Assembly: GCA_964636085.1 (NCBI GenBank) | Contig: CAZWPQ010000001.1 | Coordinates: 137,437 to 179,330 of the forward strand | Reading direction: 5' to 3' | DNA from: an uncultured Nitrososphaerota archaeon | GTDB taxonomy: Archaea; Asgardarchaeota; Njordarchaeia; Njordarchaeales; Panguiarchaeaceae | Length of the DNA: 41,894 nt | In this document: positions 41,532-41,581 of the stretch, one piece after another | How positions within the stretch are numbered: the first letter of the stretch is position 1 | Layout of the letters: every line of letters starts with the position of its first letter | Position numbers and translations under genes: made by a program | The notes under the pieces: generated by a model | The model's database searches: none | The model's input: the letters and a program-made list of their open reading frames with translations, nothing else | What the model was told of the DNA's origin: nothing

Positions 41532-41581
41532 TCAGAGTGGTGCACGCTCATCACTAATCAGAGCAGGTCAAGATTCATCAG
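41532..41581 (-). ncRNA. Box C/D guide sRNA 4 (16S h34)
   Basis: Minus strand CTGATGA-ATCTTGACCTGCT-CTGA-TTA-GTGATGA-GCGTGCACCACT-CTGA. Confidence 0.9.

What the first reader, a model, noticed from the sequence alone, without database searches (positions are those of the whole stretch)
41532..41581. C/D sRNA in the rRNA trailer guiding both strands of 16S helix 34
Seen: a near-perfect C/D'/C'/D RNA between the 23S 3' end and tRNA-Asp, on the rRNA strand. Its guides complement GUGGUGCACG and GCAGGUCAAGAU, which I align to h34 positions 1048-1057 and 1194-1205. The +5 rule gives G1051 and G1197, recalled as yeast Gm1271 (snR40) and Gm1428 (snR56). Inference: it may be co-transcribed with the pre-rRNA and bring the two distant h34 strands together.
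Basis: partly seen in the sequence, partly recalled or inferred. Interest (0 to 1): 0.78.

Follow-up and report, generated by a model that had tools for sequence, protein, structure and literature searches.

The report
Archaeal helix-34 methylation guide RNA
This is a real small guide RNA of an uncultured Asgard (Njordarchaeales) archaeon, built to direct sugar methylation on both strands of helix 34 of 16S rRNA. It is a new example of a well-known class, and its place just behind the 23S rRNA gene is not conserved among relatives.

Summary
**Observation: confirmed.** On the minus strand, at 41580-41532, lies a 49-nt box C/D sRNA. It has boxes C, D', C' and D, a 13-nt D' spacer and a 12-nt D spacer. 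It starts 47 nt after the 23S processing stem and ends 99 nt before an intron-bearing tRNA-Asp.

**Conservation.** Boxes and guide cores are invariant in six orthologues, while the flanks vary.

**Targets.**
- The genome is a MAG with no 16S, so the cognate target could not be read.
- In a same-genus 16S, the D guide forms 10 Watson-Crick (WC) pairs plus 1 G·U with the helix 34 5' strand. This match is unique in 16S and 23S, and the predicted methylated base is G1051 (E. coli numbering).
- The D' guide forms 8 WC pairs plus 2 G·U with the 3' strand, pointing at G1197. That is weak taken alone, but the orthologues reach 9 WC.
- The two sites are staggered on opposite strands, so no part of the helix could form while both guides are bound.

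**What is not new.**
- Dual guides on opposite strands of one helix are published (Dennis 2015).
- *Pyrobaculum* sR32 aims at the same G1197.
- This scan has already reported helix-34 dual guides in other Asgard and Bathyarchaeia genomes.

**Position.** Only 2 of about 7 lineages have the sRNA beside 23S. Co-transcription with 23S is plausible but untested.

**Verdict:** new member of a known kind.

The parts
41532..41580 (-). Box C/D sRNA, 49 nt (called sRNA-A in this report)
   Evidence: Sequence read. Sub-threshold Rfam C/D matches. Six orthologues with invariant boxes and guide cores. No stable self-fold, z 0.14.
41575..41580 (-). Box C, UGAUGA (preceded by C rather than a purine)
   Evidence: Invariant in all six orthologues.
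41562..41574 (-). D' guide, 13 nt. The 3' 8 nt (GACCUGCU) are conserved. It pairs with the 16S helix 34 3' strand (E. coli 1193-1202); N+5 is G1197.
   Evidence: 8 WC pairs flanked by 2 G·U on the same-genus 16S. Orthologues reach 9 WC plus 1 G·U. The core RGCAGGUC occurs once in 16S plus 23S.
41558..41561 (-). Box D', CUGA
   Evidence: Invariant.
41548..41553 (-). Box C', UGAUGA, after a 4-nt loop UUAG
   Evidence: Invariant.
41536..41547 (-). D guide, 12 nt. It pairs with the 16S helix 34 5' strand (E. coli 1047-1057); N+5 is G1051.
   Evidence: 10 WC plus 1 G·U. Unique in same-genus 16S plus 23S, and the best duplex at -21.2 kcal/mol. 18 of 1000 shuffles reach it. 11 nt are invariant in orthologues.
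41532..41535 (-). Box D, CUGA, followed by UC and then U4 (41529-41526)
41655..41894 (-). 3' end of 23S rRNA, cut off by the contig end
   Evidence: Rfam LSU_rRNA_archaea, 193 bits, model positions 2748-2987. 91% identity to the same-genus 23S.
41633..41649 (-). Probable 3' strand of the 23S processing stem, followed by a T5 run at 41632-41628
   Evidence: Homologous to the 3' arm of the perfect inverted repeat that flanks the 23S of the same-genus genome. The 5' arm is not assembled here, so this is inferred.
41342..41432 (-). tRNA-Asp (GUC) with an intron, 99 nt downstream of the sRNA on the same strand. An A/T-rich box lies about 30-45 nt upstream of it.
   Evidence: Rfam tRNA, 54.5 bits. 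ARAGORN. tRNA-Asp also lies within about 1 kb of the sRNA in relatives.

Best explanation
The element is a genuine archaeal dual-guide box C/D sRNA of a Njordarchaeales (Asgard) genus.

**Assembly and action (inferred).** It would assemble with L7Ae, Nop5 and fibrillarin.
- The D guide pairs with 16S nucleotides 1047-1057 (helix 34, 5' strand) and directs 2'-O-methylation of G1051.
- The D' guide pairs with nucleotides 1193-1202 (helix 34, 3' strand) and directs methylation of G1197.

**Geometry (shown for the predicted pairings).** The two sites lie about 156 nt apart on opposite strands and abut diagonally. The D site's partners in the mature helix are 1203-1210. The D' site's partners are 1058-1063. 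While both guides are bound, neither half of helix 34 can form.

**Possible second role (inferred).** The sRNA may therefore also act as a transient placeholder or chaperone for helix 34, as Dennis et al. 2015 proposed for helices 28 and 30.

**Context.**
- It is one of at least two helix-34 dual guides in this genome, and one of several in the order.
- In this genome it has no TATA-like box at the usual distance, so it is most likely made by read-through from the 23S gene and then trimmed (probability about 0.5).
- That position is a lineage-specific accident of gene order, not part of the mechanism.
For: **Architecture and conservation.**

**D guide.** 10 WC plus 1 G·U, unique, and the best duplex energy in same-genus 16S plus 23S. 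The guide carries G opposite C1056, a base specific to this order; the other phylum 16S fetched that cover this site and match read U there.

**D' guide.**
- Its conserved 8-nt core matches a single rRNA site, in helix 34.
- Orthologues in G001, G004 and five metagenome contigs reach 9 WC plus 1 G·U. In G001 the sRNA and the 16S come from the same genome.

**Target strings.** Both are identical in 16S from two families of the order.

**Strand map.** From the Rfam consensus structure.

**Enzyme.** A fibrillarin gene is present, 317.7 bits.

**Other helix-34 dual guides.** A second one lies in this genome at contig C4, and more occur in G002, G005 and G012.

**Published parallels.** Pyrobaculum calidifontis sR32 has a D guide in the same register for G1197. 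Neq sR15 and sR17 pair with opposite strands of one helix.

**Read-through.**
- No TATA-like box lies at -40 to -20. About ten of the 23 sRNA candidates, including the second helix-34 sRNA by eye, have one starting at about -38 to -25.
- A tRNA-sRNA pair 7 nt apart exists in this genome.
Against: - The cognate 16S is not assembled.
- The D' match in this genome (8 WC plus 2 G·U) falls below the 9-WC rule of Dennis 2015, and 36% of shuffled guides reach it.
- A helix 44 site at 16S ~1435 gives a slightly better duplex energy for this genome's D' guide, -17.1 against -16.3 kcal/mol.
- Pre-tRNA-Tyr gives a 12-pair match to the D' guide, with 4 G·U.
- The G003 orthologue pairs only 7 WC plus 1 G·U at helix 34.
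- A T5 run, a typical archaeal terminator, sits between the 23S stem and the sRNA.
- There are no expression or methylation data.
Confidence: 0.75

Rival explanations
1. Only the D guide works (G1051). The D' guide of this genome is decaying, or is aimed at another RNA, so the RNA does not bridge the two strands of helix 34.
For: - The D' match is 8 WC plus 2 G·U, and 361 of 1000 shuffled guides do as well.
- Rival sites exist: 16S ~1435 in helix 44 at -17.1 kcal/mol, 23S 1585 and pre-tRNA-Tyr.
- In G000 and G003, the two genomes with the 23S-linked copy, positions 9-10 of the D' guide differ from the CUGACCUGC found elsewhere.
Against: - The 8-nt D' core is invariant in all six orthologues, and with the G·U it matches only helix 34 in the rRNAs.
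- Other orthologues reach 9 WC plus 1 G·U.
- Independent paralogues in the order also combine one guide for each helix-34 strand.
- Dennis 2015 accept relaxed pairing for the second guide of double guides.
Confidence: 0.2
2. The sRNA is its own transcription unit, or starts at the TTTTTATG element about 50 nt upstream. rRNA transcription stops at the T5 run, so nearness to 23S has no bearing on expression.
For: - A T5 run directly follows the processing stem in both G000 and G003.
- G003 has TATA-like boxes about 24-42 nt before box C.
- Most orthologues are nowhere near 23S.
- A U4 run follows the sRNA, and tRNA-Asp has its own A/T-rich box.
Against: - No TATA-like box lies at the distance seen for other sRNAs of this genome.
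- Oligo-T termination in archaea is often leaky (general knowledge, not tested here).
Confidence: 0.4
3. It is a chance juxtaposition of short box motifs, or a dead gene copy with no function.
For: No expression data. The Rfam scores are below every gathering threshold.
Against: - There are 0 such architectures in the reversed genome against 23 forward.
- Boxes and guides are invariant across six lineages while the flanks diverge.
- The D guide matches a universally conserved rRNA site with 10 WC pairs.
Confidence: 0.03

Closest known systems
Nanoarchaeum equitans sR17 (helix 28) and sR15 (helix 30), long-range double-guide C/D sRNAs (Dennis et al. 2015, PMC4644070, Table 3 and Fig. 5)
   Same: One sRNA carries a D guide and a D' guide that pair with opposite strands of a single 16S helix, far apart in the primary sequence. 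Each is predicted both to methylate and to sequester the strands until release.
   Different: The helix is 34 instead of 28 or 30, and the lineage is Asgard. Here the two sites are staggered, so each blocks one half of the helix.
Pyrobaculum calidifontis sR32 and sR23 (Dennis et al. 2015, additional file 1)
   Same: The sR32 D guide pairs with GCAGGUCAGUA in the same register and so points at the same G1197. sR23 points at C1195, the site of the second helix-34 sRNA of this genome.
   Different: The partner guide of sR32 does not match the helix 34 5' strand. The box sequences are degenerate. The phylum is different.
Yeast snR40 (Gm1271), snR55 (Um1269), snR56 (Gm1428) and snR4 (ac4C1280); human SNORD32A, SNORD33 and SNORD25
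   Same: - Box C/D guides with overlapping binding sites in helix 34 (PMC5464676; PMC2794176).
- G1051 corresponds to Gm1271.
- G1197 corresponds to Gm1428 by my alignment.
- A sister-family sRNA points at U1049, which corresponds to Um1269.
   Different: In eukaryotes each site has its own snoRNA; here one 49-nt RNA carries both guides. Shared descent cannot be tested, because only the guide and the boxes are comparable. Other archaea also target these sites, so the match is not specific to Asgard archaea.
Pyrobaculum sRNA families with paralogues, register shifts and variable co-transcription partners (Lui et al. 2018, PMC6009581)
   Same: Duplicated guides shifted by one to a few nucleotides. 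Gene context is fluid, including co-transcription with tRNAs or upstream genes.
   Different: That paper describes no copy behind a 23S gene; the text search for 'rRNA operon' found none.

Membership tests
Archaeal box C/D sRNA (2'-O-methylation guide) | Terminal box C (RUGAUGA) and box D (CUGA) | tested here: met
   UGAUGA at 41580-41575 and CUGA at 41535-41532, invariant in six orthologues. The R position is C in this genome and A or G in the others.
Archaeal box C/D sRNA (2'-O-methylation guide) | Internal D' and C' boxes with a short loop, and two spacers of about 12 nt | tested here: met
   CUGA, then UUAG, then UGAUGA. The spacers are 13 and 12 nt, and the 13-nt spacer is conserved.
Archaeal box C/D sRNA (2'-O-methylation guide) | Guide with at least 9 consecutive WC pairs to rRNA or tRNA that cover the N+5 nucleotide (criterion of Dennis 2015) | tested here: met
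   The D guide has 10 WC plus 1 G·U on a same-genus 16S, with N+5 at G1051. The cognate 16S is not available.
Archaeal box C/D sRNA (2'-O-methylation guide) | The second guide also meets the pairing criterion | tested here: inconclusive
   The D' guide has 8 WC plus 2 G·U in this genome. It has 9 WC plus 1 G·U in G001, G004 and the metagenome orthologues, and 7 WC plus 1 G·U in G003.
Archaeal box C/D sRNA (2'-O-methylation guide) | The genome encodes the sRNP proteins | tested here: met
   Fibrillarin (PF01269) at 317.7 bits on contig C11. Nop5 and L7Ae were not searched.
Archaeal box C/D sRNA (2'-O-methylation guide) | A discrete RNA of about 50 nt accumulates, binds L7Ae, and the target is methylated | not testable with these tools
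   No transcriptome or modification data are available for this MAG.
A curated Rfam C/D family (sR17, sR1, snoPyro_CD and others) | Score at or above the family's gathering threshold | tested here: not met
   The best is sR17 at 26.7 bits against 36. All others are lower. The matches rest on the boxes, not on shared guides.
Long-range double-guide sRNA on opposite strands of one helix (Dennis 2015) | The D and D' targets are more than 100 nt apart but lie on the two strands of the same helix | tested here: met
   The predicted sites are at 1004 and 1160 of the same-genus 16S. The Rfam consensus structure places them on the 5' and 3' strands of helix 34, staggered.
Guide RNA encoded in and co-transcribed with the rRNA operon | Same strand as the rRNA, with no terminator or promoter in between | tested here: inconclusive
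   It is on the same strand, 47 nt after the stem. A T5 run lies between them. No TATA-like box lies at the usual distance.
Guide RNA encoded in and co-transcribed with the rRNA operon | The linkage to the rRNA gene is conserved among relatives | tested here: not met
   It is beside 23S only in G000 and G003. In G001, G004 and four of the five metagenome contigs it follows a protein gene. In G001 the gene after 23S is tRNA-Ala.
Orthologue of eukaryotic snR40/SNORD32A and snR56/SNORD25 | Same target nucleotides | tested here: inconclusive
   Both yeast sites are in helix 34. Gm1271 lies 9 nt 5' of ac4C1280, which fits G1051. The Gm1428 match rests on my recollection of the yeast 18S sequence.
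Orthologue of eukaryotic snR40/SNORD32A and snR56/SNORD25 | Sequence homology beyond the boxes and the guide | not testable with these tools
   A 49-nt RNA has no sequence outside the boxes and guides to compare.

The most novel reading that the evidence does not exclude
In this subclade the helix-34 guide is carried on the 23S precursor trailer. It would then be released only by rRNA processing, coupling the supply of a 16S head-domain chaperone to 23S synthesis. Separately, the Asgard one-RNA, two-site helix-34 guide could be the ancestral form from which eukaryotes split snR40/SNORD32A and snR56/SNORD25.
Probability: 0.08. Interest if true: 0.6.

Novelty: new member of a known kind. Interest (0 to 1): 0.3.

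Why it matters
**What it adds**
- A curated C/D sRNA and two predicted 16S methylation sites for Njordarchaeales, an uncultured thermophilic Asgard lineage. My searches of the held library turned up no description of Asgard C/D sRNAs.
- Evidence that helix 34, beside the decoding site, is a methylation hotspot served by several paralogous dual guides in this order.
- Predicted sites that coincide with sites eukaryotes methylate. This is of interest for the history of rRNA modification, but other archaea share these sites.

**Limits**
- The placeholder idea for helix 34 is a concrete, testable case of an existing hypothesis.
- The rRNA-trailer position, the one unusual feature, is not conserved, so it probably has little mechanistic weight.

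Tried and rejected
- **Cognate 16S.** Rfam SSU and LSU searches of the genome and blastn with same-genus rRNAs found only the 227-nt 23S end.
- **Wider distribution of this exact guide pair.** A scan of all GTDB species found 3 records, all in this genus. The D-guide pattern hit only this genus among 400 genomes of the phylum. The reversed guide order hit none of 121. The Hodarchaeales versions in the earlier scan notes were therefore not reproduced with these strict patterns.
- **tRNA targets.** Scanning the 44 tRNAs of this genome gave only G·U-rich matches. I set them aside as the main target, because the pairing falls in the non-conserved part of the guide.
- **First E. coli numbering of the 3' strand.** I first aligned AGGUCA to 1191-1196.
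Its D' guide matches only the 5' side of helix 34 and its D guide matched neither strand clearly, so it is not a both-strand guide.
- **Promoter and terminator tool.** I did not use it, because it models bacterial sigma-70 signals only.
- **Literature.** I found no paper describing a C/D sRNA in an archaeal rRNA trailer and none on Asgard C/D sRNAs. The library is incomplete.

Full report
**1. What is there**

The window ends inside an archaeal 23S rRNA gene on the minus strand. Rfam LSU_rRNA_archaea matches 41655-41894 at 193 bits, covering model positions 2748-2987.

Reading the minus strand downstream of that gene:
- the 23S 3' flank
- a T5 run
- a G+T-rich spacer
- the motif: UGAUGA, 13 nt, CUGA, UUAG, UGAUGA, 12 nt, CUGA (41580-41532)
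- UC and U4
- an A/T-rich stretch
- an intron-bearing tRNA-Asp (41432-41342)

This is the textbook layout of an archaeal dual-guide box C/D sRNA. Supporting results:
- Rfam reports about 15 archaeal C/D families below threshold. The best is sR17 at 26.7 bits, E 5e-4, against a gathering score of 36.
- The RNA has no stable fold of its own (z 0.14). That is expected when the guides must stay single-stranded.
- No ORF of 50 aa or more overlaps it.

**2. Organism and limits of the data**

- The genome is a MAG of 102 contigs, 83% complete.
- Public records that carry the same sRNA are titled Candidatus Njordarchaeota. An earlier scan note also places the genome in the Asgard order Njordarchaeales.
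- The assembly holds no 16S and only the last 227 nt of 23S.
I used the only complete 16S of the genus (G001) and a 16S fragment from another family of the order (G013).
- Both read identically at the two sites: GGUGGUGCACGG and GGCAGGUCAGUGU. The cognate sequence is very probably the same.

**3. Guides and targets**

*D guide*
- It forms 10 Watson-Crick (WC) pairs plus one G·U with 16S 1000-1010 of G001.
- This is the only site of that quality in 16S plus 23S, and the best duplex energy at -21.2 kcal/mol.
- 18 of 1000 composition-matched shuffles do as well.
- The guide has G opposite C1056. The other phylum 16S fetched that cover this site and match read U there, paired with A1204. This order has the compensated C-G pair, and the guide follows it.

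*D' guide*
- It forms 8 WC pairs flanked by two G·U with 16S 1156-1165.
- Alone this is not significant: 361 of 1000 shuffles reach it.
- A helix 44 site and pre-tRNA-Tyr give comparable, G·U-rich matches.

*Why helix 34 is still the best D' target*
- The eight D' nucleotides invariant in all orthologues are exactly those that pair there.
- Their complement, allowing the G·U, occurs once in the rRNAs.
- In G001, G004 and five metagenome contigs the guide reaches 9 WC plus 1 G·U.
- G001 is a true cognate pair, because its sRNA and 16S come from the same genome.

**4. Numbering and geometry**

- The Rfam consensus structure on the G001 16S and the E. coli-aligned supplement of Dennis et al. 2015 agree on the numbering.
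- The D site is 1047-1057, with N+5 at G1051. The D' site is 1193-1202, with N+5 at G1197.
- In the mature helix, 1047-1057 pairs with 1203-1210, and 1193-1199 pairs with 1058-1063.
- The two target segments are therefore not complementary to each other. They sit diagonally, and each blocks one half of helix 34.
- Simultaneous binding would hold the whole helix open while keeping its strands together. This is an inference from the predicted pairings.

**5. Relatives and context**

*Orthologues*
- They exist in three of the four other species of the genus (G001, G003, G004) and in five metagenome contigs.
- Boxes and guide cores are invariant while the flanks diverge.
- The exact guide pair was not found outside the genus among all GTDB species. 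It was also not found in 400 and 121 genomes of the phylum with two strict patterns.

*Position*
- Only G000 and G003 have the sRNA behind 23S, at 47 nt and about 240 nt after the processing stem.
- In G001, G004 and four of the five metagenome contigs it directly follows a protein gene, with tRNA-Asp about 1 kb away in several.
- In G001 the 23S is followed by tRNA-Ala and a convergent 16S. The rRNA genes of this genus may therefore not form one operon.
- That further weakens any idea of delivering the guide in cis to the nascent 16S.

**6. Expression**

*For read-through from 23S*
- About ten of the 23 sRNA candidates in this genome, including the second helix-34 sRNA by eye, have a TATA-like box starting about 25-38 nt before box C. 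This one has none in that window.
- The genome also has a tRNA-sRNA pair 7 nt apart and two tandem sRNAs. So sRNAs without their own promoter, made from longer transcripts, appear to exist here, as described for *Pyrobaculum* (PMC6009581).

*Against read-through*
- A T5 run follows the processing stem in both G000 and G003.
- TTTTTATG, about 50 nt upstream, could itself be a TATA box.
- G003 has better-placed A/T boxes.

I put read-through from 23S at about even odds. Either way the position is lineage-specific.

**7. Helix 34 is a hotspot in this order**

| Genome | Locus | Helix 34 5' strand | Helix 34 3' strand |
|---|---|---|---|
| G000 (second sRNA) | contig C4, 93499-93549 | D guide, 9 WC on GAGAGGUGG | D' guide, 9 WC plus 1 G·U, N+5 at C1195 |
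| G005 | L045 | D guide, N+5 at G1050 | D' guide, N+5 at C1195 |
| G012 (first) | L049, minus strand | D' guide, N+5 at U1049 | D guide, N+5 at C1192 |
| G012 (second) | L049, plus strand | D' guide, N+5 at G1050 | D guide, N+5 at A1191 |

- G002 carries an orthologue of the second G000 sRNA.
- The two G012 sRNAs are divergent neighbours about 220 nt apart.
- Guide order differs between families, which points to duplication, rearrangement and register drift. Dennis 2015 and Lui 2018 describe the same processes.

**8. Comparison with what is known**

- Dual guides on opposite strands of one helix, with a proposed chaperone role, are published for *Nanoarchaeum* sR17 (helix 28) and sR15 (helix 30).
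- *Pyrobaculum calidifontis* sR32 carries a D guide in the same register for G1197, and sR23 one for C1195.
- In yeast, helix 34 carries Um1269 (snR55), Gm1271 (snR40), ac4C1280 (snR4) and Gm1428 (snR56), with overlapping snoRNA sites.
- G1051 fits Gm1271 by its 9-nt offset from ac4C1280.
- The G1197 to Gm1428 match rests on my recollection of the yeast sequence. It is a lead, not a test.
- This scan had already reported helix-34 dual guides on other DNA: Njordarchaeales, Hodarchaeales, Hermodarchaeia, Loki-type Asgard archaea and Bathyarchaeia.

**9. Verdict**

- The target assignment is well supported for the D guide and moderately supported for the D' guide.
- The co-transcription and bridging ideas remain untested.
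- The trailer position is not conserved.
- This is a new member of a known kind, and interest is modest.

Noticed in passing
G000 contig C4, 93499-93549, plus strand (locus L041, about 600-650): A second dual-guide C/D sRNA in the same genome also pairs with both strands of helix 34. Its D' guide points at C1195 (9 WC plus 1 G·U). Its D guide has 9 WC on GAGAGGUGG, starting only at guide position 4. It has a well-placed TATA-like box and orthologues in G002, G004 and G005.
   Followed up: partly
L049 (G012), about 1472-1522 minus strand and 1745-1799 plus strand: Two divergent helix-34 dual-guide sRNAs lie about 220 nt apart in a sister family. Their guide order is swapped relative to this genus. 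One points at U1049, the equivalent of yeast Um1269.
   Followed up: partly
L013 (G001): 23S at 4762-7765 plus, tRNA-Ala at 7921-7995 plus, 16S at 8596-10111 minus: In the only relative with both rRNA genes assembled, 23S and 16S are convergent with tRNA-Ala between them. This is not the usual 16S-tRNA-Ala-23S operon. It could be a real inversion or a MAG misassembly.
   Followed up: no
G000 contig C34, about 14376-14425, plus strand: A C/D sRNA starts 7 nt after the 3' end of a tRNA gene, a probable tRNA-sRNA dicistron. Its guides match 16S positions 8 and 49 with 10 WC pairs each.
   Followed up: no
G000 contig C7, 78167-78215 and from 78245, plus strand: Two C/D sRNA candidates lie in tandem about 30 nt apart. 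The first has a guide for the 16S 3' end (position 1509).
   Followed up: no
16S helix 34 of L006/L013 (G001) and L012 (G013), compared with L001-L011: This order has C1056-G1204 where other genomes of the phylum fetched here have U1056-A1204, a compensated pair change. The D guide carries G opposite C1056.
   Followed up: partly
window 41342-41432, minus strand: ARAGORN calls the tRNA-Asp anticodon 'gtca' and leaves the type undetermined because of the intron. The G004 orthologue has no intron (72-75 nt), while the G001 and G000 copies do.
   Followed up: no
window 40713-41333 plus strand, and L017 800-1555 plus strand: The gene convergent on the tRNA-Asp/sRNA cluster has a homologue next to the sRNA in G001. 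It anchors the synteny even though the sRNA, tRNA-Asp and 23S are ordered differently there.
   Followed up: no
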